DNA from: a virus
Lineage: Duplodnaviria > Heunggongvirae > Uroviricota > Caudoviricetes
IMG/VR virus record: IMGVR_UViG_2728369393_000007
Direction: 5' to 3' (one strand)
Length of the DNA: 64,000 bases
Made by a program: the position numbers and the translations under genes. Below, piece by piece: positions 7,256-56,569 of the stretch (within the stretch, counting starts at the first letter, position 1; each line of letters begins with the position of its first letter). The notes under the pieces were generated by a model, which was not told the DNA's origin, did not search any database, and saw nothing but the letters and a program-made list of their open reading frames with translations.

Positions 7256-7256
7256 A

Positions 7257-7420: not shown

Positions 7421-7435
7421 TACACTTATTTTCCC

Positions 7436-8417: not shown

Positions 8418-8503
8418 ACGACCAGCCACTGGCAGATGGTCATCCTGTGATTTGATTCCGCTTCCGGCTTTTTAACTCTGTTCCTCTACACGGGAGAAAT
8501 TCG

Positions 8504-30129: not shown

Positions 30130-31452
30130 TTAGACTCTTGTTTCTTGGATTATATCAACGGTATCAACATAATTTGATGGGTTATGATGTGGTGAGTTAT
30201 TGCTTTCGATATTGATGACCACATCCTCTGGATTTGGATGCCGTTGTCCAACAGATACACCTTCTTCCATTGCGCGTATATCAGCCCCTGTGGCATGTTC
30301 AATATCTGCTTTATTTGGGAAAATGGCACCTTCTCTTGCATGCCACCATATACGAGGATAGTCAGTGAATCTGGCCTCTCCAAACTCGGCCTTGTTTAAA
30401 TCAGCCAGTCCAAGAGTAGTACCTGCCCACCATAAAATAGTGTCTGGCTTTAATCCGGGGGTATTATACTGTATGGCATGCCCCGCTGCTTGCCCAACCA
30501 TTGCACCGATATGAGGACTTAACATTGGATCTGTACCAGTAAATCTGGATACTGCAAATCCCCCTACAGCACCAAGCGCATTTGCGGCAGCATTGGTAAG
30601 AACGGCATATTTAGTATTAGGGTTATCTAAATCCCACTTGAAATGTGCGCCAAACTCCAGCCCTAGAGTTGCCTGTAGTGGAGATGCACCATATTTAAAA
30701 TCTGCTTCTCCCGGTCTGATCACCCACTCTTCAGTATAATTTGCTTTGGGGCCATCAGGAGTAAGAGGAGTTTCTCCAACAAGCTTCCATCCATTTTCAG
30801 TTTTGACTATAGGAAGTTCCACACCATGATTACGAACTACTTGAGCTGTTAATCCAAACCATGGTATTGGGTCTTTTGACGCGGTGGTTACCGTCGAAGT
30901 AGTGGCTGATGCAATAGTGGATGCAGCAGTCGATACAGTGGTTGGTATATTGCTGTTGCTTAATGCATTTTTTAATGGACCAGGAAGGTCTTTAAAATTA
31001 ATACCTATTTCATCATGCAAAGGGAATATCTGTAAAAAATAATTACCTGATGTAGGATGAATATCTGGTTTTACAATGTTTAGCTGGACACCATATTTAC
31101 CAGAGATACCCGGAACGGTGCTGGGTATTTCTAATGCCATCTGAGAGACATTGAATAAACCAAACATATCCAATGCTTTTTTTCCTGCAGAGCCTTCTTC
31201 AAGATGAGGTGCAAGATATTTATCCAGCCCAGAGAGCAGACCTTCATCTTTTATCAAGCTCAGTAGAGCTGTTGTTTCACCGCATTCCGGTGCATGTCGC
31301 TGCATATCCTCTGGGATATGAACAACAAATCCCGTTTCGCATCCATTAGGTAATTCGGATTGCGGTATTTGTGTAGGGGACGTTTGTTCTGCGTGATGAT
31401 GTCGATTGTTTTGTGTGGTGATTCCGGATGTTACGATCGGTTGAATGTTCAT
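30130..31452 (-). CDS. nleA: type III secreted effector NleA/EspI
   Basis: 440 aa MNIQPIVTSGITTQNN… with C-terminal PDZ-binding ETRV. Confidence 0.9.
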   Translation of the reverse strand: MNIQPIVTSGITTQNNRHHHAEQTSPTQIPQSELPNGCETGFVVHIPEDMQRHAPECGETTALLSLIKDEGLLSGLDKYLAPHLEEGSAGKKALDMFGLFNVSQMALEIPSTVPGISGKYGVQLNIVKPDIHPTSGNYFLQIFPLHDEIGINFKDLPGPLKNALSNSNIPTTVSTAASTIASATTSTVTTASKDPIPWFGLTAQVVRNHGVELPIVKTENGWKLVGETPLTPDGPKANYTEEWVIRPGEADFKYGASPLQATLGLEFGAHFKWDLDNPNTKYAVLTNAAANALGAVGGFAVSRFTGTDPMLSPHIGAMVGQAAGHAIQYNTPGLKPDTILWWAGTTLGLADLNKAEFGEARFTDYPRIWWHAREGAIFPNKADIEHATGADIRAMEEGVSVGQRHPNPEDVVINIESNNSPHHNPSNYVDTVDIIQETRV

Positions 31453-31835
31453 GATAAATCCTTATTGCATGTTTATATCCATTAATAATATCAATCCATT
31501 GATATTATTAGTGTCACATATCCGATGTGGACAGCTTTAATATATAGCTGTTTGAATGCTTGATTGATGTGACTTAGATCTCAAAATTAAGTTGTTAAAT
31601 TTACCAGTTTATCGCTTGAACACTTAAAATAAATTATAAATCCTTCTGTTATTGTTTTTATAATTCAAATTATTGTTGGTTGTATAACTTGATTACATCT
31701 TTACTCTAAGTGTTATAAATATTTTATACTGATATTAGTTTTATTATATATATTCTTAATGAAAATGAGCATAAAACTAAGACATATAATGCTTGGCAGC
31801 TTTATGCTCTTCTGATTGGCTGTATGTTTGATGAC

Positions 31836-32040
31836 AAAAAATTAGCGCAAGAAGAAAAAATCACCTTGCGCTAATGCTCTGTCTCAGGTCACTAATCACA
31901 CCTAACTCATTGATTAATTGTGACTCTAAATGTAGTGTTTTGTCGCGTTTTGCAGTATGTTATTTAATCTATTATATGAATAACATAATGATTTTTAATG
32001 TATTTTTGTAATTTACTCTCCTTCTGACATGGAAGTTGTT
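31836..32040 (+). repeat. junction repeat R2, copy a
   Basis: TGATGACAAAAAATTAGCGCAAGAAG…GCGCTAATGCTCTG…AGGTCACTAAT recurs at 35503-35700. Confidence 0.5.
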
Positions 32041-32107
32041 CGTTCAAAATCTTATTAAATATCAAGTTGTTAAATCTGGTAAGTCATTATTGGTCAAAAT
32101 AAAATCA

Positions 32108-33094
32108 TTATCCGATTTCAATTTTGTCCCACTCCCGCTCGCGACTGTCCCTATAATGCGCCGCCATTGAATCAGATTTATGTCCAAGAAGACGTTGTGC
32201 AAACTTGTAGCCAATCTGGTTCCGATATAGCCTCGCGGACAGACTACGTAGTTCATGAAATGTCGGTGGGTCTCCATCAAACGAGATCCCGGATGCATTT
32301 CGCGCCTTTGTTAAATACCGTGATACTGTGGCTGGAGAAAGTGGTTCGTGATAGGTTGATGCGATTATTGTTTCACTGCTGCTGGCCTCCCTGCATTTCT
32401 GTAGTGTATCAACCAGTGAGATGTCGAGTGCGTCAATGGTTAGAGCCAGCGGAATGGCAATTTTGGCTCCTGTTTTACTCTGTCCAATGTGAAGATGACC
32501 ATCGTTTATGTCTGACCACTTCATTCTGCACAAATCGCCCACTCTCTGCCCTGTAACGACAGCTAAATCCATTGACAGCCTCAGCCAGATGGGGAGGTGC
32601 TCAGCAGCATGGTAAATAGCGACATACTCATTAGCTGTCAGCCTTGAGCGCCTTACTTCTGACTTTGCTGCACGGGTTGTTGTTACTGGATTCGTTGCCA
32701 CATGCCCCTCGGCTATTGCCCCTCGAAAAACGTCAACAAGGGTTGACCTGATTACTCTTGCGGAAACCGCTTTACCTTCTGCGACGTAGGTGTTTAGCAT
32801 TGCTGCCACCTCTTTCGTTGATATGTCAGTGAGCGGTTTGTCCGGCAATTTTCTTCGAATTGCCCTGATTTTGCTGGCGTAGTCGAGTAATGTTTTCGGC
32901 TTGCTCCCCCTCTAGCTGAGGATTGTTTCATATCGATCAAGCCACGTATGAAGAGTGATTGAGTCAGTGCCTTTAACCCTGTCCAGCAATGATTCGTGCC
33001 CACTTTCGCTGAAAAGCTCAATGTTGGTGTGAATGCTTCTGAAATTGCTACTCTTCTGTCTCTTCCCAGCCCGAACTCTTTTTTCGTCCTCGGG
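32108..33094 (-). pseudogene. int: lambda-type tyrosine integrase, decayed
   Basis: C-terminal catalytic half intact (…HELRSLSARLY…LLGHKSDSMAAHYRD…); upstream part has a 1-bp frameshift and in-frame TAG (plus 32912-32914); N-terminus replaced at ~33095 by repeat R1. Confidence 0.75.
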
Positions 33095-33228
33095 TCAGTG
33101 TGTAGTAAGACCGCTGCAAATCCTGCGTGCTGACGGGAAGTGGGAAAATATTGGCGAAATGAAGTAACCCGATAGCTTCACAAAAACCGGAGTCCGGCTC
33201 CGGTTTTTGTTGTCATGTACGGGGGATG
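33095..33228 (+). repeat. junction repeat R1, copy c
   Basis: Matches 28812-28945 including terminator hairpin. Confidence 0.7.
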
Positions 33229-33273
33229 TCTGTTAGGAATAATTAGATAGGTTTATTTTGAAGGTTGAAATGT

Positions 33274-34185
33274 ATGTTATCGCCCTCTTCTATAAATTTG
33301 AGATGTTCATGGAATTCTTTAACCAGAAACCTGACTTCGCCTGATAATCGTGTTTTATCCTCTGTAAGGGATGCTGCTGTTCACTCTGATAGCGGGACGC
33401 AAGTAACGGTTGGCAACAGAACATATCGTGTTGTGGTCACTGATAATAAGTTTTGCGTTACAAGAGAAAGTTATAGTGGTTGTTTTACTAATCTGTTGCA
33501 CAGGTTGGGATGGCCTAAGGGAGAGATTAGCAGAAAAATTGAGGCTATGCTGAATACATCGCCAGTGAGCACGACTATAGAAAGAGGCTCTGTTCATTCG
33601 AACAGACCTGATTTACCTCCAGTGGATTATGCGCAGCCGGAGTTACCTCCAGCGGATTATACTCAGTCAGAGTTGCCGAGGGTTAGCAACAATAAATCAC
33701 CCGTGCCAGGTAATGTTATTGGTAAAGGTGGTAATGCTGTCGTGTATGAAGATATGGAAGATACAACAAAAGTGTTGAAGATGTTTACTATATCTCAAAG
33801 CCATGAAGAGGTGACAAGCGAAGTTCGTTGTTTCAATCAGTATTATGGTTCCGGGAGTGCAGAGAAAATATATAATGATAATGGAAATGTTATTGGTATT
33901 AGAATGAATAAAATAAATGGGGAATCTCTTTTGGATATTCCATCATTACCAGCACAAGCTGAACAGGCTATTTACGATATGTTTGACAGACTGGAGAAAA
34001 AAGGAATTCTTTTTGTTGATACAACAGAAACAAATGTTTTATATGATCGTATGAGAAATGAATTTAATCCAATAGATATATCATCTTATAATGTTTCTGA
34101 TATTTCATGGAGTGAACATCAAGTCATGCAATCTTATCACGGAGGAAAGCTGGATCTTATTAGTGTAGTATTAAGTAAGATATAA
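33274..34185 (+). CDS. nleH: type III secreted effector NleH (OspG-like kinase)
   Basis: MLSPSSINLRCSWNSLTRNLTSPDNRVLSS… kinase core, C-terminal SKI. Confidence 0.9.
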   Translation: MLSPSSINLRCSWNSLTRNLTSPDNRVLSSVRDAAVHSDSGTQVTVGNRTYRVVVTDNKFCVTRESYSGCFTNLLHRLGWPKGEISRKIEAMLNTSPVSTTIERGSVHSNRPDLPPVDYAQPELPPADYTQSELPRVSNNKSPVPGNVIGKGGNAVVYEDMEDTTKVLKMFTISQSHEEVTSEVRCFNQYYGSGSAEKIYNDNGNVIGIRMNKINGESLLDIPSLPAQAEQAIYDMFDRLEKKGILFVDTTETNVLYDRMRNEFNPIDISSYNVSDISWSEHQVMQSYHGGKLDLISVVLSKI

Positions 34186-34250
34186 TATTTTTATCCAGAT
34201 ATATTAGTTGCAATAATGTTTATGGATTTATTTGTTAAGGGGGTTTTGAT

Positions 34251-34820
34251 ATGTTACCAACAAGTGGTTCTTCAGCAAATCTTTATTCATGGATGTATGT
34301 ATCAGGAAGAGGTAACCCTTCGACTCCGGAATCAGTAAGTGAGCTTAATCATAATCACTTTCTTTCTCCTGAATTACAAGATAAACTTGATGTTATGGTC
34401 TCTATATATTCATGTGCCAGAAATAATAATGAGCTTGAGGAAATTTTTCAAGAGCTAAGTGCTTTTGTAAGTGGGCTGATGGATAAGAGAAATAGTGTAT
34501 TTGAGGTGAGAAATGAAAATACTGATGAGGTTGTCGGAGCGCTGAGGGCGGGAATGACGATAGAGGATAGGGATAGTTATATCAGGGATCTTTTTTTTCT
34601 GCATTCATTGAAAGTAAAAATTGAGGAAAGTAGACAAGGCAAAGAAGATTCGAAATGTAAAGTTTATAATCTGCTATGTCCGCATCACTCTTCAGAGCTA
34701 TATGGTGATCTACGAGCAATGAAATGCCTCGTGGAAGGATGCAGTGATGATTTTAATCCTTTTGATATTATTAGGGTACCAGATCTTACTTACAACAAAG
34801 GATCTTTACAATGTGGATGA
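34251..34820 (+). CDS. nleF: type III secreted effector NleF
   Basis: 189 aa MLPTSGSSANLYSWMYVSGRG… ending LQCG. Confidence 0.9.
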   Translation: MLPTSGSSANLYSWMYVSGRGNPSTPESVSELNHNHFLSPELQDKLDVMVSIYSCARNNNELEEIFQELSAFVSGLMDKRNSVFEVRNENTDEVVGALRAGMTIEDRDSYIRDLFFLHSLKVKIEESRQGKEDSKCKVYNLLCPHHSSELYGDLRAMKCLVEGCSDDFNPFDIIRVPDLTYNKGSLQCG

Positions 34821-34866
34821 TTAGAGGCCTGTGAGCCTGTTTAGGATTCTGTGTAAATGCCTTTTC

Positions 34867-35501
34867 TTAAAAGTGACCGTCAAGACGGTCATCAAACTCG
34901 ATAATAAAGCGGCTCATTGCCATTCGCCAGTCCCTTAACGGCATTGTCCATTTCTGTGACGCGGCCTGGATTGCCAGCCACACCACTTTTTTTACTGACT
35001 CGTCCGTCGGGAACACCTTGCGTTTCCTGATGGCATGCCGGATCACACTGTTCAGCGACTCGATGGCGTTCGTTGTGTAGATCACTTTGCGGATATCTGC
35101 CGGATAAGCGAAAAACGTCGCCAAGTTAGTCCAGTTTGACAGCTAGCACCGGCTTATCTGCGGATAGCGGCAGTCCCAGGCCGCAGCAAACGCTTCCAGT
35201 GCCTGCTGGCCTGCCTCTTCTGTGGGAGGCTAATCGCTTTCAGGTCGCGAGTGACGGCTTTGTATTCCTTCCATGACACGAAGCGCATGCTGTTGCGCAC
35301 CATATGCACGATGCATAACTGGATGCGGGCCTCTGGGAATTCTTTCAGGCCATCCACACAGGCGATGAGGATATCGTTCAGACCGCGGTTTTTCAGTTCA
35401 GTCAGCACATTGAACCAGAAATTCGCCCCTTCATTTTCGGCCAGCCGCATCCCCAGGAGCTCTTTCTGACCTGCGATATTGATGCCCAGTGCTAGGAACA
35501 T
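34867..35501 (-). mobile_element. IS256-family transposase remnant (N-terminally truncated, internally disrupted)
   Basis: Two ORF pieces (…GINIAGQKELLGMRLAENEGANFW… and …YTTNAIESLNSVIRHAIRKRKVFPTD…); truncated where repeat R2 copy b begins. Confidence 0.65.
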
Positions 35502-35502
35502 T

Positions 35503-35700
35503 TTTATGACAAAAAATTAGTGCAAGAAGACAAAGAATCGCCTTGCGCTAATGCTCTGAAACAGGTCACTAATATCATCTAAATAGTTGACTCATAGTGA
35601 CAGCATGTGTTGTGTCTTGCAGTATTATATAGCCTATTATTTAGATTGAAGCCATCATAATCTATTGATGTTAATGGTTTTTTATTGTTTGTTGTTCGGC
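35503..35700 (+). repeat. junction repeat R2, copy b
   Basis: See 31836-32040. Confidence 0.5.
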
Positions 35701-36976
35701 TTTTTATACTAATTTGAGCGAAACAAAAAGATAAAAAGTTGTTTTTCGTGTCTTTAAGTGATACCAGATGGTATTGCGCTAAATGTACCAATGGGTATAC
35801 CAAGAGCACTAAAAACAAAGGGGCAACCACTTTGTAACCCCTTGATTATTTGCAGAAGCGCAGAAAATCGAACTCTGGAACCCTTTCGGGGCATCCTTTT
35901 TCAAGAATGAAGAAAAAAATAACTAAAAAATCAAGTTGTTAGGAAGTTATTCATGGCTAGTGTACCAACTCTTTTCTGGGCTAATAGCTATGATTTGTTT
36001 GTATTATTTGTCTCTGTCTCTATTATTTTTGACATCCATGCGACTTCTGATATTGATAATCTCAGTTGTGGAGTTCTGTCTGCGCTTCCGGGAGGACGCA
36101 TATCAAAACTACAGGATCTTCTGTTAAACACTGTAAAGCCATCTACATTGCATGTTGTTGAGTCTAAGATACAATTTTTAGTAGATGATTTATCTGCTAT
36201 AGGCCTAGATATTTCAGGTTGATGCCAAGTGTGTCCTGAAAAAATACTTTTTATTGAAAATGGCATTTTTATCCTCACATTATGTCTTTCTCTTATAGTG
36301 CAATTTAATGTATTTAGAAACATTAAACTATGAATCTAAAAAGGCTACGCAGAGTACTGTTACACTTTAACAAATCATATTTACCACTCTGGAAATGGGA
36401 TGGCTGGTTCATAAAATAATGAGTCTTTTTCAACGGTTGTTACATTGGTGTACTGATGATTATGCCTTGTCGCTAAGAGCTACCATAACCGTACAGCGTG
36501 ATTCATCCATGGCGAATAAATCGACTGATAAATCCCCCTGAGTTTCAGCTCTTGCTGTTGGACCTTGCCCGTTTCGCTATGGAACGCGTACCAGCTAGAG
36601 AATATTATTCGTTCTCCTCCAATGTTACGCAAGTTTTGTAAACGGTAACCAATCGTGATTAGTCCTGCATGTAACGGACATCAAGCTGTCTGGTTGATTT
36701 TTATTGCCAGCAGTTCGAGAGAGCAGACAACTGCGTCCGATGGAAAAATGGGCACGACAGGGTATTCAGGCAACCTCGCTGAGGAGGCTTATGGTACAGA
36801 TTGTAATGTGAAGTATAAAACGTTAAAAATTCCATTTTAGAAACTAAATAGCTGTAATATAAGTTCGATCTAATCTACTATTTTGACAGACAGATTGTAT
36901 CAAGAATTAGGGAGTATGAAATAGATGGCAATAACTAGTAAAATTAATTTTGCAACATTTAAATCGAACCATACAG

Positions 36977-46810: not shown

Positions 46811-47530
46811 CTAACCAAATCTGTTGATATTGAATGGTACAGATGAGATTACTTTTGACTGGATATAGAGCAGCGCCATTCCCTCTTTTTCGATGCTCCA
46901 TGGCTGATAGTTGGGATTGTCTGATAAGACCATGATCTTGCTTCCAATTTTTTGAAGTCGTTTGACGTAACATTCGCCATCAAAGCAAAATGCATAAATG
47001 CCATCGCCGTCAAAGTAAGTTACTGTTTTATCTAAAAACAGTAAGTCTCCCGGGGAGATTGTTGGGGCCATGCTGTCCCCTCTGGCGTTACCGATTTCTA
47101 TGTTCTTGAATGCTCTGTTACCGACCAGGCGGCGGGCATATTCAGGATCAAGTTCTATTGAGCGTACTACATCAATTAGATCTCCCCGTACATGAGTTCC
47201 GTCGCCGCAACTGAATTCAACATCCAGTACATTGAACACAACGCTGTCTTCTCTTGTATGGTGTTTTTCAGCTGAAGAGAATGTCGATGAGGCATCTTCA
47301 CCCAAAAACCAGGATTGTGGATAACCACTAATTACTGATAGCTGTGCAAGTTTATCGCTTCTGGGAAACGTCTTTCCTGTAGTCCAGTATTGTACTGATT
47401 GCGCGCTTACACCCAGCTTACGGGCTAGTTCAGCCTGACTCCAGCCTTTCGTTTTCAGCATCATTGCTATCCGATTTTCTGTGCTTTTTATATTCTTCAT
47501 GGTGAGTTCCTGTCGAAGCTTTATACACAT
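46811..47530 (-). CDS. cI: CI-type repressor (HTH_XRE + S24 LexA-like peptidase domain)
   Basis: …GWSQAELARKLGVSAQSVQYW… HTH and …GDSMAPTISPGD…VKRL… Ser/Lys dyad; start may be the internal ATG at 47500. Confidence 0.8.
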   Translation of the reverse strand: MCIKLRQELTMKNIKSTENRIAMMLKTKGWSQAELARKLGVSAQSVQYWTTGKTFPRSDKLAQLSVISGYPQSWFLGEDASSTFSSAEKHHTREDSVVFNVLDVEFSCGDGTHVRGDLIDVVRSIELDPEYARRLVGNRAFKNIEIGNARGDSMAPTISPGDLLFLDKTVTYFDGDGIYAFCFDGECYVKRLQKIGSKIMVLSDNPNYQPWSIEKEGMALLYIQSKVISSVPFNINRFG

Positions 47531-47632
47531 AAATATTAACTTGATTTTAGTGTATTCGATCCTTTTGAAACTTGCATGTTAATTTATTCTTGATGTATTC
47601 TTGATTTGTAAAGTTAATGTTGGAGCTGCGCT
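47531..47632. promoter_or_regulatory. divergent cI/cro promoter-operator region
   Basis: AT-rich intergenic with repeated TTCTTGAT / ACTTGATTTT motifs. Confidence 0.45.
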
Positions 47633-47890
47633 GTGATAAAACTGAATGATTACGACATGTTGCGTAAATTGATCCCTCAAAACGCCATAGCGAGATACAT
47701 CGGTGTTACGCCACAAGCGGTGAATCTGTGGTTTTCTAAAAACTCCGTTCCTTCTCGTTTTGTTTTACGGGTGTGTGAATTGGTTGAATGGAAGGTTACT
47801 CCGCATGGGTTAAGACCTGATCTATACCCTTATCCCGAAGATGGAATTCCTGATTCGTTACGAAAATCAAACGGTATTACCAGAGATTAA
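47633..47890 (+). CDS. Cro-like / YdaS-family DNA-binding protein
   Basis: GTG with GGAG RBS; …AIARYIGVTPQAVNLWFSKNSVP… HTH. Confidence 0.55.
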   Translation: MIKLNDYDMLRKLIPQNAIARYIGVTPQAVNLWFSKNSVPSRFVLRVCELVEWKVTPHGLRPDLYPYPEDGIPDSLRKSNGITRD

Positions 47891-47971
47891 AGACTGACTG
47901 TCACAAGCAGTAATTCACGATGAATACGTTTTGGCGTGAGTTCTGAAATGTCATCCTCAAGGAGCAATCAG

Positions 47972-48679
47972 ATGAACACCGCAATTTTTAACGATAAAGC
48001 ATCCATGACCAGCGTTGAGATTGCAGAGCTGGTGGGCAGCCAACACAAAGATGTTAAACGCAGCATTGAAAGACTCATGGGGAAGGGAGTTATCCGAAGT
48101 GCGCCAATGGCGAATTTCGAAATAATCAACAACTTAGGATTGAAAAGAAATGTAGCTGCTTACGTATTCGAAGGTGAACAAGGCAAACGCGACAGTATCA
48201 TTGTTGTCGCGCAGATTTGCCCTGAATTCACCGCCCGCCTGGTAGACCGCTGGCGTGAACTGGAAGAACAGATCCGTAAGCCAATGAGCGAAATCGAAAT
48301 GGTTGCCGCGATGGCTCTTGAAGCCGTTCGCCAACAGAAACGGATCACTCAGGTGGAAGAAAAAGTCATCCACGTTGCTGAAACAGTTGAGCAAATTAAA
48401 AAGGGCACTATTCGTGAGGGCTATGCCGGATATCGCCAACTGAAAGCAAAAACCGGTTTGTCAGATGATAAATGCTGCAATCTGGTGAACGCCTATCAAA
48501 TTCCTACAGACACACATGAGTTCATGACGCCGGACGGATTGTTGTCACGTCGCGCAATTGTTGCTGTGGAACCGTTTATGGCTGCTTTTTATCGGGTTAT
48601 GGAGGAAGCAGAACCGCGAGGGACTCGCTGGTATCACCCGAAAATGGGGTTATTTCAGGTTATTGGTTGGCAGCGGTGA
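47972..48679 (+). CDS. phage regulatory protein, Rha/antirepressor-like N-terminal domain
   Basis: AAGGAG RBS; …MTSVEIAELVGSQHKDVKRSIERLM…. Confidence 0.5.
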   Translation: MNTAIFNDKASMTSVEIAELVGSQHKDVKRSIERLMGKGVIRSAPMANFEIINNLGLKRNVAAYVFEGEQGKRDSIIVVAQICPEFTARLVDRWRELEEQIRKPMSEIEMVAAMALEAVRQQKRITQVEEKVIHVAETVEQIKKGTIREGYAGYRQLKAKTGLSDDKCCNLVNAYQIPTDTHEFMTPDGLLSRRAIVAVEPFMAAFYRVMEEAEPRGTRWYHPKMGLFQVIGWQR

Positions 48680-49086
48680 AAAAAAGCCGGGAGTAACCCG
48701 GCTCACTCAACATCAATAACGGGGAGCTGTTTCGCATAAAACGGCTCCGAAACATCCAAGAACAGTTCTAAAGATATCAGCAGCTATATGATCATTTCAA
48801 GACCAAATATTGATTCTGCAATTTCGGGACGTTACACTGTCTCCGCACCTTATAAAGCGGGTGCCGGGGTCGCAGCCCGGAATTGCTCGAGGCGATATAC
48901 GACGCGCCAGCGTCTTTTTTATCGTCCATGCTCGCGCACGCCAGAATTATGGTGGGCTGGGCAGGGGAGCCGAAAGGCTCGCCGGTTTCCTTGAGCGCCG
49001 GTACTGCGAACCCTGTTCAGTTCACCACCCATGAGTTTCGCAGCTCCGGTGGTGGAAGTTTTTCACTGCTCAAGGAGGCTGCCATC

Positions 49087-49449
49087 ATGGCTACAGTCCC
49101 AACTTCCCCATACCTGAAAATTGAAGTTGTCAACGGCAAGGCCGTTATTTTCTCCCTGCATGTTGCCTGCCACTTTAAGCGCATGCACCAGAACATCGTC
49201 GACAAAATCGAGTATCTGAACTGCTCACGCGAGTTTTTTACCCGCAATTTCATACCGGGTACTTATCACATCTACGGTGACTCCCTGCGTGGTTATTACA
49301 TCACCCTTGATGGTCTGATGATGCTTCAGCTTGGGTTAAGTCTACGCACAATGCGGTACTACGAGAGCTGCATTGAAGCATTCCATGAGGCAGAAATCAG
49401 CCTCAGTCACACCGCTTTCCGCCGTAATCAATGGGAGGTGCGCCCATGA
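49087..49449 (+). CDS. Rha-family phage regulatory protein
   Basis: AAGGAGG RBS; …FSLHVACHFKRMHQNIVDKIEYL…YITLDGLMMLQLGLS… resembles Phage_pRha domain. Confidence 0.55.
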   Translation: MATVPTSPYLKIEVVNGKAVIFSLHVACHFKRMHQNIVDKIEYLNCSREFFTRNFIPGTYHIYGDSLRGYYITLDGLMMLQLGLSLRTMRYYESCIEAFHEAEISLSHTAFRRNQWEVRP

Positions 49450-49679
49450 TTCGCCGCGTCGTTAATTCCCTGTATCACCGATACAACCGTTGCCCCCGTG
49501 TGGGGCAGTGGTTCACCACCAGCAACGGCCACGTTCTGCGGGTTTGCCTGGTCAATACAGAAAGCCAGATGGTTGTCTGCCAGGTTCAGGGACGTACTCA
49601 TACCCTGAGTTATCCGCTGGTGGCTTTTCAGTCCGGGAAAATGTTTAAGCGTCTGGGAGGTGGCTATGCGTCCGTCTGA
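49446..49679 (+). CDS. hypothetical small protein
   Basis: ATGA overlap with upstream stop; 77 aa. Confidence 0.35.
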   Translation: MIRRVVNSLYHRYNRCPRVGQWFTTSNGHVLRVCLVNTESQMVVCQVQGRTHTLSYPLVAFQSGKMFKRLGGGYASV

Positions 49680-50574
49680 TCTTCTGCTCGATTTTGGGCA
49701 TCCGGTTGCTTATTACCCTGGGCTCGTTAAATACATGGGAAGTCCGCACGCTGTTATTTTCTTTGGTCAGATTTTTTACTGGCAGGATAAAGCACATGCA
49801 GCGGAAGGCGTACATAAAACGCGTGAAGAGATACAACACGAAACTGGACTTACATTTGAACAACAGGCTGTAGCGCGTAAGCATCTTGTGTCCAGAGGCA
49901 TTTTGGTTGAAACCAACAAGCGTCTTGAGCACAAAATGTTCTACCGTATAGATTGTGAGCGCCTTAATGAAATTATCAATGAAAACAATCAGTTTTCCCG
50001 AAATGGGGAAACCCGTTTTCGGGAAACTGTAAAACCCAATTTCGCGGAGGAGGGAAAGCCTTCACCGCGGACACGGGAAACCACTCGCCGCGGAGAAGGG
50101 AAAACCAATTTCGATCTTACAGAGAATACAACAGAGATTACTTCAGAGAATACTACAGAGAGTAAAAACACTATTGGCGCATCCGCTGACGCGTCTGCAC
50201 CAGCGCGTTCTGCCCGACAGGAATATTCACCGGAATTTGAACAGGCCTGGCAGGAATATCCCAAACGTGCTGGTGGTAATTCCAAGTCAGCAGCCTTCAA
50301 AGCCTGGAAAGCCCGAATCAGGGAAGGTGTGACACCAGAAACCATGCTCAACGGTGTGAAACGCTATGCTGCCTGGGTGCGTGTCTCAGGAAATACCGGC
50401 ACCCAGTTCGTGAAGCAGGCGTCGACGTTCTTTGGACCCGATCGTCACTTCGAAGATTTCTGGCAACAGCCAGCAGCTCCCGGAGGTGGGCGACAGCGAC
50501 AGGTCGATGTCCTGGCTGGCCTGGGAGCCATGTCTGACAAATTCGGTAAATCCAGTGACAAATTGACATTCTGA
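49666..50574 (+). CDS. phage replication initiation / replisome organiser protein
   Basis: GGGAGG RBS; N-terminal winged-helix-like block and C-terminal …EFEQAWQEYPKR…FKAWKARI… block. Confidence 0.55.
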   Translation: MRPSDLLLDFGHPVAYYPGLVKYMGSPHAVIFFGQIFYWQDKAHAAEGVHKTREEIQHETGLTFEQQAVARKHLVSRGILVETNKRLEHKMFYRIDCERLNEIINENNQFSRNGETRFRETVKPNFAEEGKPSPRTRETTRRGEGKTNFDLTENTTEITSENTTESKNTIGASADASAPARSARQEYSPEFEQAWQEYPKRAGGNSKSAAFKAWKARIREGVTPETMLNGVKRYAAWVRVSGNTGTQFVKQASTFFGPDRHFEDFWQQPAAPGGGRQRQVDVLAGLGAMSDKFGKSSDKLTF

Positions 50575-50584
50575 GGTGACAGCG

Positions 50585-51463
50585 ATGATGACGTTTAACC
50601 TGCGTGAACAACAAACAAGACTACAGGCGCGGATGGATGAGTTACGGGCAGAGATTGCATTTGCTCAGAAGGGCGAAAAACCATGGCCTTATCGTTCCTG
50701 CTGGATGCGTGAAGGGCGCGGGTGTTGCGAAAAACATGGCGAATACCACACACATATTCTGGTGTGGAGCGATCGTAATGGCGAGGACAGAGAAAAAATT
50801 TCATGCTGCCCTGACTGCTTGATAGCTGAGGCCAACGATTTGACCATGGAGCTGTCGTCCCTCAAGGCGGAAGAACTGACTGATAACGCCGGAATTGCTC
50901 TGCGTTTTCGGGACTGCGAGTTTGATAATTATCTGGAGGTTAATCCTGACGCAGCCAGAAATCTTGCGGCCTGTCGCCGCTATGCGGAGAACTGGCCAGA
51001 TATGCTGGAGAACGGTACCAGTCTTGTTATGACCGGCAGTTGCGGTACCGGGAAAAATCATCTGGCGGTATCAATGGCAAAACACATCATCCGTAACTAT
51101 CTGGCCAGTGTGGAGATCACCGACGTGATGCGCCTTACCCGTGCTGTGAAAAACTGCTGGCGGAATGACAGTGAAAAAACAGCGGATGACGTCATTGAGC
51201 ATTATGCGTCACTGGATTTGCTGATCATCGACGAAGTCGGCGTTCAGTTTGGCAGTGCGGCTGAAATGGCCATTTTGCAGGAAATTATCAATGCCCGGTA
51301 TGAGGGTATTTTGCCAACTATCTTGATCAGCAACCTTTCACCGGAAGAATTGTGGGCGTTCATCAGTCCCCGGATTGCCGACAGGATCACCAATGGCGGG
51401 CGCAACTGGTTGTCGTTTAACTGGCCCAGCTACCGTTCTCGTATCGGAGGTGTTGCCGCATGA
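50585..51463 (+). CDS. DnaC-like helicase loader (AAA+ ATPase)
   Basis: Walker A GSCGTGKNHLA and Walker B LLIIDEVG. Confidence 0.8.
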   Translation: MMTFNLREQQTRLQARMDELRAEIAFAQKGEKPWPYRSCWMREGRGCCEKHGEYHTHILVWSDRNGEDREKISCCPDCLIAEANDLTMELSSLKAEELTDNAGIALRFRDCEFDNYLEVNPDAARNLAACRRYAENWPDMLENGTSLVMTGSCGTGKNHLAVSMAKHIIRNYLASVEITDVMRLTRAVKNCWRNDSEKTADDVIEHYASLDLLIIDEVGVQFGSAAEMAILQEIINARYEGILPTILISNLSPEELWAFISPRIADRITNGGRNWLSFNWPSYRSRIGGVAA

Positions 51464-52860
51464 CCAGCCAGAACACCCCGGCATGGCGTAACGATGACCT
51501 GGAAGGCGCTGTCATTGGCGCGTTTTTTCTGCGTGGGGCTGATCCGGAAGTGATGGATATTCTGGCCACATTGTCGGCGGACGTTTTTTCTGCACGACAG
51601 TACCGGGATATTTACGCGGGAATTTGCAGACAGGCACGTGTATCCGGCGTCATTGACCCCGTACTGCTGTGCAATGAGATGCCGGAACTTGCCCCGGTGA
51701 TTACCGACACCGGACGCAAAACCTGGGTGAAGTCTTCACTGGAGCACTATGTCGCAGCGTTGCGGCGTAATGCCGCACTGCGCGATGCAGAAAAAACACT
51801 GACTGAAGCATTACAGAATTTACGGGATGCGCATACCTGTGAAGCAGCCGAGGATGCCCTGAAGGATGCGCAGAACATGATGGCCTCACTGTCGACCGGA
51901 AAGGGCGTCATTCAGCCGGTTCACATTGATGATGTCCTTCCGGAAGTGGTCGACCGTGTTGAATGCCGCAATCAGGGACTGGAGAAATCCAGGGCGCTGA
52001 TGACCGGTATTGATGAACTGGACGCAAAAACGGGCGGTATGGAGCCAGGCGACCTGGTATTCATTGCGGCCCGTCCTTCGATGGGGAAAACCGAACTTGC
52101 GCTGGATATCATCGACAAGGTGACTGAGCAGGGGCATGGCGTGCTTCTGTTCACCATGGAGATGGCGAACATTCAGATTGGTGAACGTATGGTGTCTGCT
52201 GCCGGGGGAATGCCGGTATCCCGTCTTAAGTCTGTTGCCCGTTTTGAAGATGAAGACTGGGCGCGTTTCTCACAGGGCGTGGGACGAATGACGGGGCGTA
52301 ATATCTGGATGGTGGACCAGGCAAACCTGACCATTGATGAGATATGTGCAACCACGAGGCACCACCGGATGAAACACCCGGAAACGGCGCTGGTGGTGGT
52401 CGATTACCTCGGCCTGATTAAAACCCGCAGCACGGGGCGTCACGACCTTGCTGTGGGGGAAATCTCAAAGGGACTTAAAAGCCTGGCAAAATCCGGCGGT
52501 TTTCCGCTGATTGCTCTGAGCCAGCTCTCCCGTGGCGTGGAATCCAGACCCAATAAACGCCCCATGAACTCGGACCTGAAAAACTCAGGGGAAATAGAGG
52601 CGGATGCAGACATCATTCTGATGCTTTACAGGGATGAGGTGTACAACCCGGAGACACAGGCGAGAGGCATAGCTGAAATCAACATCACGAAACAGCGTAA
52701 TGGCACGCTGGGTACCATTTACCGGCGTTTTCATAACGGGCATTTTCTGCCTGTGGACCAGGAGAGTGCCCGGGTTCTTTCCACTCCCATGACGCCGGGC
52801 AATCCGCGCAGATACAGCAATAACCGCATGTCGGGTAGTAAAACGGAGCGTTTATTTTGA
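51460..52860 (+). CDS. replicative DNA helicase, DnaB family
   Basis: Walker A ARPSMGKTELAL, …LIALSQLSRGVESR… helicase motifs. Confidence 0.85.
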   Translation: MTSQNTPAWRNDDLEGAVIGAFFLRGADPEVMDILATLSADVFSARQYRDIYAGICRQARVSGVIDPVLLCNEMPELAPVITDTGRKTWVKSSLEHYVAALRRNAALRDAEKTLTEALQNLRDAHTCEAAEDALKDAQNMMASLSTGKGVIQPVHIDDVLPEVVDRVECRNQGLEKSRALMTGIDELDAKTGGMEPGDLVFIAARPSMGKTELALDIIDKVTEQGHGVLLFTMEMANIQIGERMVSAAGGMPVSRLKSVARFEDEDWARFSQGVGRMTGRNIWMVDQANLTIDEICATTRHHRMKHPETALVVVDYLGLIKTRSTGRHDLAVGEISKGLKSLAKSGGFPLIALSQLSRGVESRPNKRPMNSDLKNSGEIEADADIILMLYRDEVYNPETQARGIAEINITKQRNGTLGTIYRRFHNGHFLPVDQESARVLSTPMTPGNPRRYSNNRMSGSKTERLF

Positions 52861-53114
52861 ACAACAGAACCACCACTGTTTCACCGGAACAACTTCGTCG
52901 GCAGGCGCAGGAGATGCTTCGTTGTGCTGAACAGATGGAAAAAACGAGCGTGGCAAAAGATACGCTCCGCAAGCAGCTTACTCCGGCGCTTCGTGATCTG
53001 CTGCAGGCAAAACATCGCACACAAAAGGCGGTGGATGAGCTGGTGGATTGCGTGGCGGAACTGGAAGGCCAGGTAAGCCAGTTTGAAACGCTGGTGAAAG
53101 AGTTTACTGCGTGA
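52857..53114 (+). CDS. hypothetical small coiled-coil protein
   Basis: 85-aa ORF overlapping dnaB stop. Confidence 0.4.
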   Translation: MNNRTTTVSPEQLRRQAQEMLRCAEQMEKTSVAKDTLRKQLTPALRDLLQAKHRTQKAVDELVDCVAELEGQVSQFETLVKEFTA

Positions 53115-53246
53115 TGGCTGAATTTTTTCTCCTGCGTTCATGCAATACGTTCGCTGAGGTGACCGTGAGAGCACTGCTGACCCCTGAAATTGCCCGCGTA
53201 TGGGGATCGTCTTGTTCAGACCCGGTTCAGAGCTGATGCCCTGTTT

Positions 53247-54152
53247 TCAGGACAGCACACCAATCGCCAGTGCGCGATCGATAAAACGAAATATCAGCTC
53301 CAGTTGGGAACCATACTTCTCTTCAAATGCCACGGTATCCGCATGCAGTTCGTCATGGTGTTTTCTGCACAAAGGCAACACAAAAAGGTCATGCGCTTTT
53401 GTACCCATTCCACCCTGACCATGGCCAATCAGGTGATGTGGATCGTCGGCTGGCTTACCACAACACGCGCAAGGCTGTGTCTTAACCCAGCGCGTGTACT
53501 TTTCATTAACCCAGCGACGACGTTTGGGGCGTAACATAAAAGACTCCGGCGACTCCGGATCCACTTTCAGCGCCAGCACCTTTTTCGCTTTATCCTGGAT
53601 AATGCTGGTGGCAGGAACCGAAGGCACAAGGTCACTCTCCCGGGTGACAGACGGCAAAACAGGCTTCGGTAATCTCAGGGCCTTACGGGCTGCACTTTCC
53701 GGTAAGGCATCCGCCAGGTCATTACGAACCAGCCACCAGCACAGTTCAGGCATTGTCACAACGTGACTGTCATCAAAACCGAGATCACGACGGACTACGG
53801 ACAACACCCAGCGGGCACAGTTATCCGTTGCCATTGACTCCAGACGTTCCGTGAACTGATCGCGAAGCAGGTTATCGCAGTGCCAGCACAGACGGATTGC
53901 GCCCGGCGCGTGTCGCATTGTGGTCATGTTCTCGCTGTGCCATCCGGAATGAGGCCACTGGCAGCCTTTTTCACGAAGTAACCAGCTCTCAAGGCATTCC
54001 ACGCCACCAGCACGACGGATCACCGCCTCATGGCGGAACACGGCCCGAACGGCAGGATCATCCGCCAGCGGTTGTGATGCTGCCGGAACGGCACCACTGG
54101 CAAAAGATGAATAACGTTCCGGCTCAGGCTCCAGCAGGACACGCCCCTGCAT
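53247..54152 (-). CDS. DUF968 family protein (YdfU-like), inverted relative to neighbours
   Basis: …CACCGKPADDPHHLIGHGQGGMGTKAHDLFVLPLCRKHHDELH; paralog of 4949-5932. Confidence 0.7.
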   Translation of the reverse strand: MQGRVLLEPEPERYSSFASGAVPAASQPLADDPAVRAVFRHEAVIRRAGGVECLESWLLREKGCQWPHSGWHSENMTTMRHAPGAIRLCWHCDNLLRDQFTERLESMATDNCARWVLSVVRRDLGFDDSHVVTMPELCWWLVRNDLADALPESAARKALRLPKPVLPSVTRESDLVPSVPATSIIQDKAKKVLALKVDPESPESFMLRPKRRRWVNEKYTRWVKTQPCACCGKPADDPHHLIGHGQGGMGTKAHDLFVLPLCRKHHDELHADTVAFEEKYGSQLELIFRFIDRALAIGVLS

Positions 54153-54171
54153 TTTTTTGTGGAGAAAGTTG

Positions 54172-54540
54172 ATGCGTGATATTCAGATGGTTCTTGAACG
54201 CTGGGGGCATGGGCGGCAAGTGGTAACACCGGGGTGGACTATTCTCCGATCGCTGCCGGATTCAAAGGCCTTTTACCATCTACCACTAAACCACGTCCAG
54301 CCTGCTGCGATGATGACGGACTTATCATTGAAAACTGTCTTGCACGTCTGAAGCAGAAAAAACCTGAGGAGTATTCGCTTCTCATTGCTCATTATTTGTT
54401 GCGAATATCAAAAAGACAGATAGCCAGGACGAAAGAAAAGCGAAAAAGCAATACGAATTGAGATGCAGATAGCCGAAGGGTTTATTGACGGATGTTTGTC
54501 TGTGCTGGGGGTAGACTGGAGATGGACGACTGGCTGCTAA
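54172..54540 (+). pseudogene. phage 82-type antiterminator Q, frameshifted
   Basis: GGAGAAAG RBS, MRDIQMVLERWG… then frame changes (…IAAGFKGLL…CCDDDGLIIENCLARLK…, …GFIDGCLSVLG…). Confidence 0.5.
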
Positions 54541-54621
54541 AAAAAGTAAAAAATGATTAGTGCGGTCCGCAAAAAGTATGTCAGTATGTTAAGAGTGGTT
54601 ACTTTGCCACACAGCTTAAAT

Positions 54622-54642
54622 CCGCCGTCAGGCGGGTTTTTT
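54622..54642 (+). terminator. rho-independent terminator downstream of decayed Q
   Basis: CCGCC-GTCA-GGCGG + T6. Confidence 0.55.
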
Positions 54643-54764
54643 ATGCCTGAAATCGGACCAGTACGTTAAACGCGCTGGTGGCGGTGAATACCGGTCTTTC
54701 AGCTTGCTGGCTTTTTCGACAAGAGTTATTGGTGTGTCACGTTAACCGGAAAAGGGAAAAAGAC

Positions 54765-54962
54765 ATGCTGAAACAGCAGGATATGACAGAAACCGCCAGA
54801 GTGGTGTTTAATGAATTAAGTGCCACCGCACCGGCGACAGTCGGGGAGATTGCACAGAATACGTACCTTTCACGCGAACGCTGCCAGCTAATACTGACCC
54901 AGCTTGTTATGGCGGGTCTGGCAGACTATCAGTTTGGTTGTTACAGACGCCTTCAGTCCTGA
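54765..54962 (+). CDS. hypothetical small winged-helix-like protein
   Basis: 65 aa MLKQQDMTETARVVFNELSATAPATVGEIAQ…; architecture similar to 2118-2495. Confidence 0.4.
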   Translation: MLKQQDMTETARVVFNELSATAPATVGEIAQNTYLSRERCQLILTQLVMAGLADYQFGCYRRLQS

Positions 54963-55114
54963 AGGCTTTTTTATTTGTGGTAAATGGGCGGCTGGTGGGT
55001 GTTAGGGGCACTCACCAGCCATCTGCTCATGCGTTGGGGTCACAAGCAAAACCTCAGGCCCATCTGCTTTGCGCAAAAGCGGTATGAGCCTATCAGAGAC
55101 AGGCTTAATGATCC

Positions 55115-55768
55115 ATGTTTAATACTGTAAAAATATCCAGTTGTGAGTTAATCAACGCCGACTGCCTGGAATTTATCCGGTCGTTACCCGAAAATTCTGT
55201 TGACCTGATAGTCACGGACCCGCCGTACTTTAAAGTGAAGCCTGAGGGCTGGGATAACCAGTGGACGGGTGATGAGGATTACCTGAAATGGCTGGACCAG
55301 TGTCTGGCGCAGTTCTGGCGGGTGCTGAAACCTGCCGGAAGTCTTTACCTGTTCTGTGGCCATCGCCTGGCATCTGACATTGAAATCATGATGCGTGAAC
55401 GCTTCAGTGTGCTGAACCATATTATCTGGGCGAAGCCGTCCGGACGCTGGAACGGGTGCAACAAGGAAAGCCTGAGGGCGTATTTCCCCGCCACAGAGCG
55501 CATTCTGTTCGCGGAACATTATCAGGGGCCGTATCGTCCGAAAGATGCCGGGTATGAGGCGAAGGGCAGGGCACTGAAACAGCATGTGATGGCTCCGCTG
55601 ATTGCTTACTTTCGTGATGCGCGTGCTGCCCTGGGGATAACGGCAAAACAGATAGTGGATGCCACAGGAAAGAAAAACATGGTGTCGCACTGGTTCAGTG
55701 CCAGTCAGTGGCAGCTACCGAACGAAAGCGATGAAGTCACCGTTACTGAAGCGGGCGCTGCAGGGTAA
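55115..55768 (+). pseudogene. DNA methyltransferase (DPPY motif), C-terminally truncated
   Basis: …DLIVTDPPYF… catalytic motif present but no C-terminal SAM-binding FxGxG block; ORF ends 13 nt before tail-gene remnant. Confidence 0.55.
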
Positions 55769-55781
55769 ACGGAGGTAATAC

Positions 55782-56460
55782 ATGTTTCTGAAAACAGAAC
55801 AATTTGAATATAACGTGTCCGTCACTTTCCGAATTGTCTGCGCTGCAGCGGTTTGATTATATAAAGTTTTTTTCAGACGCAAAACAACAGGAGACAACGA
55901 AGCATGATGTCGTGCACATTAACAGCGATATCTGGAAACGGCATCCCTGCTTGTGGCGATGTCGCTATGGCATTCCCATTCCCTCAAAGGCACTCTGGCC
56001 TCTCCGGAGACAGAGATGCAGCAGATCCGCCGTGAAGTGATGCTGGGATGGCCTGCTGATGCACTGAATCAGGCAACGAACGGGTTTTATCTTTCAGGTA
56101 TGGATAAACCGGCACGATGCCGATCCTGAACCAACCGGGAAAACAGAAGCGACTGAGCCGGTAACATCAAAAAAGCATTCGAAGGCGAGCTGAACTTTGT
56201 CCTGAAACTGGCGCGTGAGATGGGGAGAGCCGACTGGCGCGCCATGCTTGCCGGGATGACATCCACCGAATATGCCGACTGGCGACGTTTTTACTGCACG
56301 CATTATTTTCAGGATACCCAGCTGGATATGCATTTTTCCGGGCTGACGTACGCCGTACTCAGCCTGTTTTTTTGCGATCCGGATATGCATCGGCGGATTT
56401 CAGCCTGTTCGCTCCGGAGGCAGAGGAAGGGCAGGCGGAGACGCCGACGAAAATGATGTA
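55782..56460 (+). pseudogene. tail assembly chaperone G/T remnant
   Basis: GGAGG RBS, MFLKTEQFEYN… then frameshifts; T-frame segment …MLAGMTSTEYADWRRFYCTHYFQD… at 56220-56456. Confidence 0.5.
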
Positions 56461-56569
56461 CTTGATGCAGAGGCGGCGGGCCTCGCCGGTGGAGTCCGTT
56501 TCGGGGAGGAGGGAAGGAGGTTGTGACAGTTATTGATGGTATCAGAGGACATTTCAGGAGGTGACCACG

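What the first reader, a model, noticed from the sequence alone, without database searches (positions are those of the whole stretch)
55115..55800. Deletion junction in prophage B joining a truncated methyltransferase to the tail cluster
After decayed Q there are no lysis or head genes; a DPPY methyltransferase lacking its SAM-binding half ends 13 nt before the RBS of a G/T chaperone remnant. A single large deletion appears to have removed lysis, packaging, head and tail-tube genes.
Basis: partly seen in the sequence, partly recalled or inferred. Interest (0 to 1): 0.4.

Follow-up and report, generated by a model that had tools for sequence, protein, structure and literature searches.

The report
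Contig-end join mimicking a prophage deletion
The apparent 16.5-kb deletion that fuses a half methyltransferase gene to the tail genes of a Shiga-toxin-type prophage falls exactly where the two error-rich ends of a long-read genome assembly meet, so it is most likely an assembly artefact and not a biological deletion.

Summary
ORF 55115-55768 holds codons 1-206 of a 352-aa phage DNA methyltransferase: the DPPY motif is kept and the FxGxG AdoMet motif is lost. The true breakpoint is 55732, inside the ORF. The last 11 codons and the stop belong to major tail gene V.

An otherwise near-identical intact Stx2a prophage (E. coli O145:H25 CFSAN004176, yecE locus) has 16,505 bp more at this one point: the methyltransferase 3' end, three tRNAs, stx2AB, lysis, terminase, portal, head genes and most of V.

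The join is probably not biological, for four reasons.
- The window differs from the intact copy almost only by 1-bp losses in G/C runs (85 deleted, 6 inserted, 4 substituted bases).
- The density of these differences rises towards 55732 and steps up there.
- Published prophage coordinates for sister strain CFSAN004177 (P01 = 1-14298 plus 5177474-5191331) match the two arms to the base, so 55732|55733 is the origin of that linear PacBio record.
- The sister assembly has a different "deletion", also at its record ends.

The contig ends most likely stopped inside a duplicated ~45-kb Stx2a prophage. "Decayed Q" and the "G/T remnant" are probably consensus errors too. If the deletion is real after all, it was already described in 2017. 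Interest is low.

The parts
41374..41394 (+). attL of prophage B. This is the 21-bp attB-in-prophage site inside the ompW prophage, and marks the left limit of the Stx2a-type prophage copy.
   Evidence: It matches the published 21-bp attB GTCATGCAGTTAAAGTGGCGG with 2 mismatches and is the only hit in the window. The site is defined in Nakamura et al. 2021.
41434..42720 (-). Integrase of prophage B. Its outer boundary is the published limit of CFSAN004177_P01.
   Evidence: Coordinates were mapped from the NZ_CP014583.1 annotation. The span 41435-55732 is exactly 14,298 bp, which equals P01 piece 1 in Table S2.
53247..54152 (-). 906-bp block, 100% identical to the 3' part of the DUF968 gene but inverted. 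It runs exactly from ATG to TGA.
   Evidence: The inversion joint is absent from all 3,689 E. coli genomes that carry this sequence.
54172..54549 (+). Antiterminator Q gene, broken by four short indel events and no substitution.
   Evidence: Pfam Phage_antitermQ on the 75-aa fragment. Indels lie at 54208, 54433, 54514 and 54545.
55115..55732 (+). 5' 618 nt (codons 1-206) of the beta-class DNA methyltransferase gene. Motif IV (DPPY) is present; motif I is absent.
   Evidence: It matches WP_000483505.1 up to the junction, with no difference from the intact copy between 55052 and 55732. PF01555 profile positions 1-106 of 221 are matched.
55732..55733 (.). The junction. It is the abutment of base 1 and base 5,191,331 of the linear record inferred to be CP014670.1 (CFSAN004177), and 16,505 bp are absent here relative to the intact copy.
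   Evidence: Searches give the breakpoint and the 1-nt microhomology. Searches give the coordinate match: 14,298 bp on one side and 13,858 bp on the other. Searches show the step in error density.
55733..55768 (+). Last 11 codons plus the stop of major tail gene V, in frame with the methyltransferase fragment.
   Evidence: EVTVTEAGAAG* is identical to the C-terminus of WP_000235101.1.
55782..56193 (+). Tail assembly chaperone gene G, broken by about 8 events (7 indels of 1-3 nt and one substitution).
   Evidence: The gene is intact (141 aa) in the comparator.
56220..56520 (+). T part of the G-T frameshift chaperone, with indels.
56570..59177 (+). Tape measure gene H, split into many ORFs by about 45 one-base homopolymer losses.
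   Evidence: The gene is an intact 2,646 bp in the comparator.
59174..64000 (+). Tail genes M, L, K, I and the 5' part of J. The error density falls with distance from the junction.

Best explanation
The junction at 55732|55733 is where the two ends of a linear PacBio chromosome contig meet when the record is read as a circle. The record is inferred to be E. coli O145:H25 CFSAN004177, GenBank CP014670.1, with the window being its reverse complement taken across the origin.

The strain carries a ~45-kb Stx2a prophage at yecE and a second copy integrated into the 21-bp attB inside the ompW prophage. That exact repeat is longer than the P4/C2 10-kb-library reads. The contig could therefore extend only about 14 kb into the second copy from each unique flank, with coverage and consensus quality falling off, and it stopped there. 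Declaring the contig circular abutted codon 206 of the methyltransferase gene to the last 11 codons of tail gene V.

Shown here: the breakpoint, the content of the missing block, the error signature and its spatial profile, the coordinate identity with the record origin, and the same pattern in the sister assembly.

Inferred: the real genome holds the missing 16.5 kb, that is a complete second stx2a prophage; and the frameshifts in Q, G, T, H, L, K and J are consensus errors and not pseudogenisation.
For: (1) Window 1-11992 is 100% identical to CFSAN004176 and 11492-53246 is 99.94% identical. Lorenz et al. 2017 describe CFSAN004177_P01 at yciE as lacking stx2AB and packaging, tail and lysis genes.

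(2) Their Table S2 gives P01 as 1-14298 plus 5177474-5191331. In the window, the integrase boundary to 55732 is exactly 14,298 bp. The right arm is 13,928 bp in the intact copy minus a net 70 bp of homopolymer losses, which is 13,858 bp, exactly the length of piece 2.

(3) Differences from the intact yecE copy are 85 deleted, 6 inserted and 4 substituted bases, mostly G or C in runs. The density rises from 0-1 per kb to 3-5 per kb on the left arm. It jumps to about 25 per kb immediately right of 55732 and then decays. Within 1 kb of the junction there is 1 event on the left and 17 on the right, p = 1.5e-4; within 2 kb, 6 versus 36, p = 3e-6. Density grows with distance from the unique flanks on both arms.

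(4) In the sister assembly NZ_CP014583.1, the same prophage copy is cut by the record end (just past the holin gene) and the record start (mid tape measure gene). The last 6 kb and the first 1 kb are error-rich. Its missing block is not nested with this one.

(5) Methods were PacBio RS II P4/C2, a 10-kb library, HGAP3/Quiver, and manual contig merging.

(6) The junction is absent from 5,426 complete E. coli genomes and from the GTDB representative genomes. The hybrid protein is not on record in 153 billion gene positions.

(7) Intact Stx2a prophages occupy this same attB in other strains.
Against: The authors state that the assemblies were confirmed by BamHI optical maps and that reads were mapped back. 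A missing 16.5 kb might have been noticed that way. They, and Nakamura et al. 2021 for the sister strain CFSAN004176, treat these second prophage copies as truly deleted. I could not fetch CP014670.1 itself, so the identification rests on coordinate arithmetic and on near-identity to the sister strain. No raw reads were available. A clean join with 1 nt of microhomology is also what illegitimate recombination would leave.
Confidence: 0.88

Rival explanations
1. A real 16.5-kb internal deletion by illegitimate (microhomology, RecA-independent) recombination in the second, ompW-prophage-integrated copy of the Stx2a prophage. It would have removed the tRNAs, stx2AB, lysis, packaging and head genes and most of V. 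It would leave a locked-in remnant and an in-frame methyltransferase(1-206)::V(11 aa) fusion that cannot bind AdoMet.
For: There is a single clean breakpoint with 1 nt of microhomology and no inserted DNA. Internal deletions are common in EHEC lambdoid prophages (general knowledge). The publication reports the prophage as defective and the assembly as checked against an optical map.
Against: The breakpoint coincides to the base with the arbitrary origin of the linear record. Reads crossing a real junction would be uniquely placeable and would give a high-quality consensus there, yet error density is highest and discontinuous at the junction. A sister isolate with an almost identical chromosome would need a second, independent, non-nested deletion that also falls exactly at its record ends. 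No other assembly supports the junction.
Confidence: 0.1
2. The 217-aa protein is a complete member of a naturally short methyltransferase family, and no junction exists.
For: None beyond the ORF being open and having a start codon and a stop codon.
Against: Residues 1-206 are identical to the N-terminus of a 352-aa enzyme and residues 207-217 are identical to the C-terminus of tail protein V. The Pfam profile is covered only over positions 1-106 of 221, against 1-219 in the intact protein. Motif I is absent.
Confidence: 0.01
3. The block was lost through IS-mediated or site-specific or homologous recombination, for example IS600-adjacent deletion or recombination between prophage repeats.
For: The strain carries more than 50 IS600 copies, and IS600 interrupts the neighbouring prophage A.
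Against: Both sides are collinear with the parental sequence up to the same base, and no IS end, att site or repeat lies at the join. The two parental sequences share only 1 nt at the breakpoint.
Confidence: 0.01

Closest known systems
CFSAN004177_P01 and CFSAN004176_P01, the 'Stx2-like' defective prophages at yciE in E. coli O145:H25 (Lorenz et al. 2017, BMC Microbiol 17:183, PMC5567499)
   Same: This is the same locus and, by coordinate arithmetic, the same sequence. The total is 28,156 bp in pieces of 14,298 and 13,858 bp, with no stx2AB and no packaging or lysis genes.
   Different: The paper reads the gap as a biological defect. The error profile and the coincidence with the record ends shown here argue that it is an unresolved repeat at the contig ends.
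Duplicated Stx2 prophages created by integration into attB-in-prophage of the ompW prophage (Nakamura et al. 2021, PLoS Pathog 17:e1009073, PMC8112680)
   Same: The architecture is the same: an ompW prophage with a T3SS-effector exchangeable locus (nleA, nleH1-2, nleF, nleG, espM1), a 21-bp att site, the same integrase, and an early region that matches the yecE Stx2a prophage apart from homopolymer indels (99.9% overall).
   Different: In strains 112648, 12E129, PV15-279 and 28RC1 the second copy is full length. Here the middle 16.5 kb is absent from the record.
Contig ends falling in unresolved repeats, a long-read assembly artefact at repeats longer than the reads (general knowledge of HGAP/Quiver behaviour)
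   Same: Homopolymer-deletion errors rise towards the contig ends. The contig extends into the repeat by roughly one long-read length (14.3 and 13.9 kb here; 19.8 and 12.1 kb in the sister assembly). The two ends do not overlap.
   Different: Read-level evidence could not be examined here.
Beta-class N6-adenine/N4-cytosine DNA methyltransferases (Pfam PF01555) encoded between Q and stx in Stx phages
   Same: The N-terminal 206 residues, including DPPY, are identical to WP_000483505.1, which is found 99.9% identical at the DNA level in many O157, O111, O26, O103 and O145 Stx prophages.
   Different: It lacks part of the middle region and the AdoMet-binding motif I, so as written it cannot be an active enzyme.

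Membership tests
PF01555 N6_N4_Mtase (beta-class amino-methyltransferase) | Catalytic motif IV (D/S)PP(Y/F) | tested here: met
   DPPY is at residues 35-38 of ORF 55115-55768. The Pfam hit scores 64.1 bits.
PF01555 N6_N4_Mtase (beta-class amino-methyltransferase) | C-terminal AdoMet-binding motif I (FxGxG) | tested here: not met
   FMGSGST near residue 311 of the intact 352-aa protein lies beyond the breakpoint at residue 206.
PF01555 N6_N4_Mtase (beta-class amino-methyltransferase) | Full-length coverage of the domain profile | tested here: not met
   Profile positions 1-106 of 221 are matched, against 1-219 of 221 for the intact relative.
Biological deletion by illegitimate recombination | A block is absent at a single point relative to an otherwise collinear intact relative, with at most short microhomology and no mobile-element scar | tested here: met
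   16,505 bp are absent, 1 nt is shared, and there is no IS or repeat.
Biological deletion by illegitimate recombination | The junction is supported by contiguous sequence (reads or independent assemblies) crossing it | tested here: not met
   The junction equals record base 1 abutted to base 5,191,331. It is absent from 5,426 complete E. coli genomes, from the GTDB representatives, and from the gene-position index. Raw reads could not be tested.
Assembly artefact: contig ends inside an unresolved long repeat | The discontinuity coincides with the ends of the deposited contig | tested here: met
   Arm lengths of 14,298 and 13,858 bp equal the published P01 pieces 1-14298 and 5177474-5191331.
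Assembly artefact: contig ends inside an unresolved long repeat | Consensus-error signature (homopolymer indels far outnumbering substitutions) increasing towards the ends | tested here: met
   85 deleted, 6 inserted and 4 substituted bases. The rate reaches about 25 per kb next to the junction against 0-1 per kb 10 kb away, and the step at the junction has p = 1e-4 to 3e-6.
Assembly artefact: contig ends inside an unresolved long repeat | A second, near-identical copy of the region, longer than the reads, exists in the same genome | tested here: inconclusive
   This is shown directly for the sister strain: a 45-kb yecE Stx2a prophage that matches the window apart from homopolymer indels and 4 substitutions. 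For the window's own genome it rests on the publication, which reports a 44.7-kb Stx2a prophage at yecE in CFSAN004177.
Assembly artefact: contig ends inside an unresolved long repeat | No reads span the join, and read depth over the 'deleted' block is twice single-copy depth | not testable with these tools

The most novel reading that the evidence does not exclude
The deletion is real. Two sister HUS isolates (2003 and 2004) would then each have independently lost a different internal segment of a freshly duplicated Stx2a prophage. That would capture stx2 copy-number reduction in progress. It would also leave an in-frame fusion of a methyltransferase N-terminal half (DPPY, no AdoMet site) to a tail-protein tail, which could act as a DNA-binding but catalytically dead protein.
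Probability: 0.08. Interest if true: 0.3.

Novelty: not a real feature. Interest (0 to 1): 0.1.

Why it matters
As a biological finding it does not matter. The junction is the origin of a linear record, and even if it were real it was described in 2017.

The practical value is cautionary, in three ways.
1. Windows cut across the origin of 'circular' long-read assemblies can create convincing pseudo-deletions, gene fusions and 'decayed' genes.
2. The two published 'defective Stx2-like prophages' of O145:H25 strains CFSAN004176 and CFSAN004177 are probably unresolved second copies of an intact Stx2a prophage. The 'stx2A inactivated by multiple indels' in CFSAN004176, cited again in 2021, would be part of the same artefact. 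Both HUS isolates may therefore carry two functional stx2a copies, which bears on virulence interpretation.
3. Homopolymer-only frameshifts should not be read as pseudogenisation.

Tried and rejected
- I searched a 41-nt junction string in the GTDB representative genomes and got 0 hits. That collection holds one genome per species, so the result says little.
- I searched the junction region and the inversion joint in 5,426 complete E. coli genomes. No record covers either joint.
- An exact look-up of the 217-aa hybrid protein in the gene-position collection found nothing on record.
- Fetching CP014670 directly failed because it is not in the collections. The identification had to come from Table S2 arithmetic.
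- I considered true pseudogenisation of Q, G, T and H. I rejected it because indels outnumber substitutions about 20 to 1, sit in G/C runs, and are graded with distance from the contig ends.
- I considered IS-mediated, att-mediated or homologous recombination at the junction. There is no IS end or repeat, and only 1 nt of shared sequence.
- I considered a short complete methyltransferase family and rejected it.
- I considered a Quiver repeat-masking model with a real deletion. That model predicts good quality at the junction and the worst quality in mid-arm, which is the opposite of what is seen.
- I considered a missed-adapter chimeric read as the cause of the 906-bp inversion. Such a read gives A-B-B'-A' palindromes, not the A-B'-C arrangement seen here, so the inversion is left unexplained.

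Full report
**What is in the sequence.**
ORF 55115-55768 (217 aa) begins with a DNA methyltransferase N-terminus containing DPPY. Pfam N6_N4_Mtase (PF01555) matches only profile positions 1-106 of 221. A megablast of 54600-56600 against 5,426 complete E. coli genomes found thousands of matches, but none covering 80% or more of the query. Matches to Stx prophages stop at window 55732, and matches to lambdoid tail clusters start at 55732.

The best comparator is the intact Stx2a prophage at yecE of E. coli O145:H25 strain CFSAN004176 (NZ_CP014583.1). Its gene order is Q, a 65-aa ORF, the 352-aa methyltransferase, tRNA-Ile, two tRNA-Arg, stx2A, stx2B, DUF6645, holin, lysozyme, Rz, terminase, portal, ClpP-capsid fusion, head-tail genes, U, V, G, T, H, M, L, K, I and J.

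Window 45334-64000 is collinear with this prophage apart from one 906-bp inversion and one discontinuity at 55732, where 16,505 bp are absent. At base level the window reads ...GAAAGCGAT|GAAGTCACC.... The left parent continues TATCTG, the right parent is preceded by GTGGCT, and only one T is shared.

The hybrid ORF is methyltransferase residues 1-206 followed by the last 11 residues and the stop of major tail protein V, in frame. The AdoMet motif FMGSGST (about residue 311) is beyond the break. The intact protein covers PF01555 positions 1-219 of 221. The 13 nt after the stop are the native V-G spacer, including GGAGG. Prophage B has no tRNA gene, and no IS or repeat lies at the join.

**The differences from the intact copy are not evolutionary.**
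From attL to 64000 the window differs from the intact yecE copy by 85 deleted, 6 inserted and only 4 substituted bases. The missing bases are 43 G, 33 C, 7 A and 2 T, almost all in homopolymer runs.

Per-kb counts are 0-1 between 44 and 53 kb (1-3 just inside attL) and 3-5 between 53 and 55 kb. There are none in the last 680 bp before the junction. Then there are about 25 per kb for the 2 kb after it, about 10 per kb to 60 kb, and 1-6 per kb to 64 kb.

The step at 55732 is significant. Within 1 kb there is 1 event on the left and 17 on the right (p = 1.5e-4). Within 2 kb there are 6 and 36 (p = 2.8e-6). On both arms the density grows with distance from the unique flanks. The first indels right of the junction are 2-3 nt long, as in sequence supported by one or two reads.

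By contrast, window 1-11992 is 100% identical to CFSAN004176. This is the signature of low-coverage long-read consensus, not of pseudogene decay. The breaks in Q (4 indel events), G, T, H, L, K and J are therefore most likely errors.

**Where the window comes from.**
Lorenz et al. 2017 (PMC5567499) sequenced CFSAN004176 and its sister strain CFSAN004177 (CP014670). They used PacBio RS II P4/C2, a 10-kb library and HGAP3/Quiver, with optical-map-guided manual merging of contigs. They report that both strains carry a 45-kb Stx2a prophage at yecE plus a second 'Stx2-like' prophage P01 at yciE. In CFSAN004176 that copy has nonsense mutations in stx2A. In CFSAN004177 it lacks stx2AB. Both lack packaging, tail and lysis genes.

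Their Table S2 lists CFSAN004177_P01 as 1-14298 plus 5177474-5191331, that is, spanning the record origin. In the window, the distance from the integrase boundary (41435) to 55732 is exactly 14,298 bp. The right arm is 13,928 bp in the intact copy, and subtracting the net 70 bp of homopolymer losses seen up to 64000 gives 13,858 bp, exactly the length of the second piece. The next prophage in that table (26084-57048, ompW) also maps correctly, to window 29649 and leftwards.

Hence the window is the reverse complement of that record read across its origin. Window 55732 is record base 1, and window 55733 is record base 5,191,331. I could not fetch CP014670.1 to confirm this directly.

**The sister assembly shows the same thing.**
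In NZ_CP014583.1 the same prophage copy runs off the record end just past the holin gene and resumes at record base 1 in the middle of the tape measure gene. Relative to its own yecE copy it has no differences for 13 kb beyond the first 1 kb at attL. The last 6 kb then carry 52 differences, mostly indels, including the 'broken' stx2A. The first 1 kb of the record has 9, and almost none follow.

Its missing block (holin to mid tape measure gene) and the window's (methyltransferase to the end of V) overlap but are not nested. Two independent real deletions would therefore be required in two almost identical isolates, each landing exactly on an arbitrary record origin.

**Mechanism.**
Nakamura et al. 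2021 (PMC8112680) showed that Stx2 phages integrate into a 21-bp attB inside the ompW prophage, creating duplicated, near-identical Stx2 prophages at yecE and ompW. The window has that att site at 41374-41394. It also has the T3SS-effector locus to its left (nleA, nleH1-2, nleF, nleG, espM1). Other strains carry full-length Stx2a prophages at this site.

A 45-kb exact repeat cannot be spanned by P4/C2 reads. The contig extended about 14 kb into the repeat from each unique flank and ended there. Treating the record as circular abuts the ends. A real junction would be unique sequence, richly covered by reads and well polished, which is the opposite of what is seen.

I put the artefact explanation at about 0.88 and a real illegitimate deletion at about 0.10. 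The main counter-argument is the authors' statement that optical maps confirmed the assemblies.

**Comparison with what is known, and verdict.**
As written, the ORF fails membership of functional PF01555 enzymes because it lacks motif I and covers only half the profile. The locus is the already published CFSAN004177_P01. The architecture is the known prophage-in-prophage duplication. Nothing here is new biology.

The useful outcome is a warning that the published 'defective' second Stx2 prophages in both O145:H25 genomes are probably assembly gaps, so both HUS strains may carry two intact stx2a copies. Read mapping, depth over the stx2-to-V block, or a simple junction PCR would settle it.

**Unexplained.**
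Block 53247-54152 is an exact reverse complement (0 differences in 906 bp) of the 3' part of the DUF968 gene and runs precisely from an ATG to the TGA. In the error-free parent, other in-frame ATGs lie upstream. In the window, a 1-bp homopolymer loss at 53242 removes them from the frame. The block therefore equals a CDS that is callable only on the error-bearing consensus. None of 3,689 genomes carrying this sequence has the inversion. That points to an in-silico, annotation-aware event, for example reverse-complementing a selected CDS during manual editing, within 2.5 kb of the contig end. I could not prove this.

Noticed in passing
window 53247-54152 (about record bases 1581-2486): A 906-bp block is inverted relative to every relative. 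It is 100% identical to them and bounded exactly by the ATG and TGA of a CDS that exists only on the error-bearing consensus, because a 1-bp loss at 53242 removes the upstream in-frame ATGs. The inversion is absent from all 3,689 E. coli genomes that carry this sequence. It looks like an in-silico, annotation-aware inversion and not biology.
   Followed up: partly
window 42847-64000: There are about 84 indel or substitution events relative to the intact yecE prophage copy, almost all 1-bp losses in G/C homopolymers and graded with distance from the unique flanks. The broken Q, G, T, tape measure, L, K and J genes are probably consensus errors and not pseudogenes.
   Followed up: yes
L003 44873-49735 and L006 1-1000 (NZ_CP014583.1 record end and start): The sister assembly CFSAN004176 has its own 'large deletion' and 'stx2A inactivated by multiple indels' exactly at its record ends, within error-rich sequence. 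The published interpretation (Lorenz 2017; cited by Nakamura 2021) may therefore be an artefact, and the strain may hold two intact stx2a copies.
   Followed up: partly
window 41374-41394, with 30130-40554 to its left: Prophage-in-prophage architecture. A 21-bp attB-like site (2 mismatches to the published sequence) lies next to a T3SS-effector exchangeable locus of the ompW prophage. That locus holds nleA 30130-31452, nleH1-2 33274-34185, nleF 34251-34820, nleG 36977-37624, espM1 37808-38398, an IS630 pseudogene, and a DUF1076 gene 39904-40554.
   Followed up: partly
window 1-368 and about 14862-16126: There are IS600 copies in prophage A. One splits the terminase large-subunit gene, as in CFSAN004176. 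This fits the reported count of more than 50 IS600 copies in O145:H25.
   Followed up: no
window 16461-16469: A 9-bp insertion (GGGAAGCCG) relative to CFSAN004176 lies in prophage A near the IS600-disrupted terminase and capsid region. It is the only multi-base difference outside prophage B.
   Followed up: no
window 7180-7420: Prophage A carries a three-tRNA cluster (ARAGORN calls them Met-CAT, Lys-TTT and Arg-TCT). The RefSeq annotation of the sister strain lists only tRNA-Ile and tRNA-Arg at the same place, so the middle tRNA call differs between the tools.
   Followed up: no
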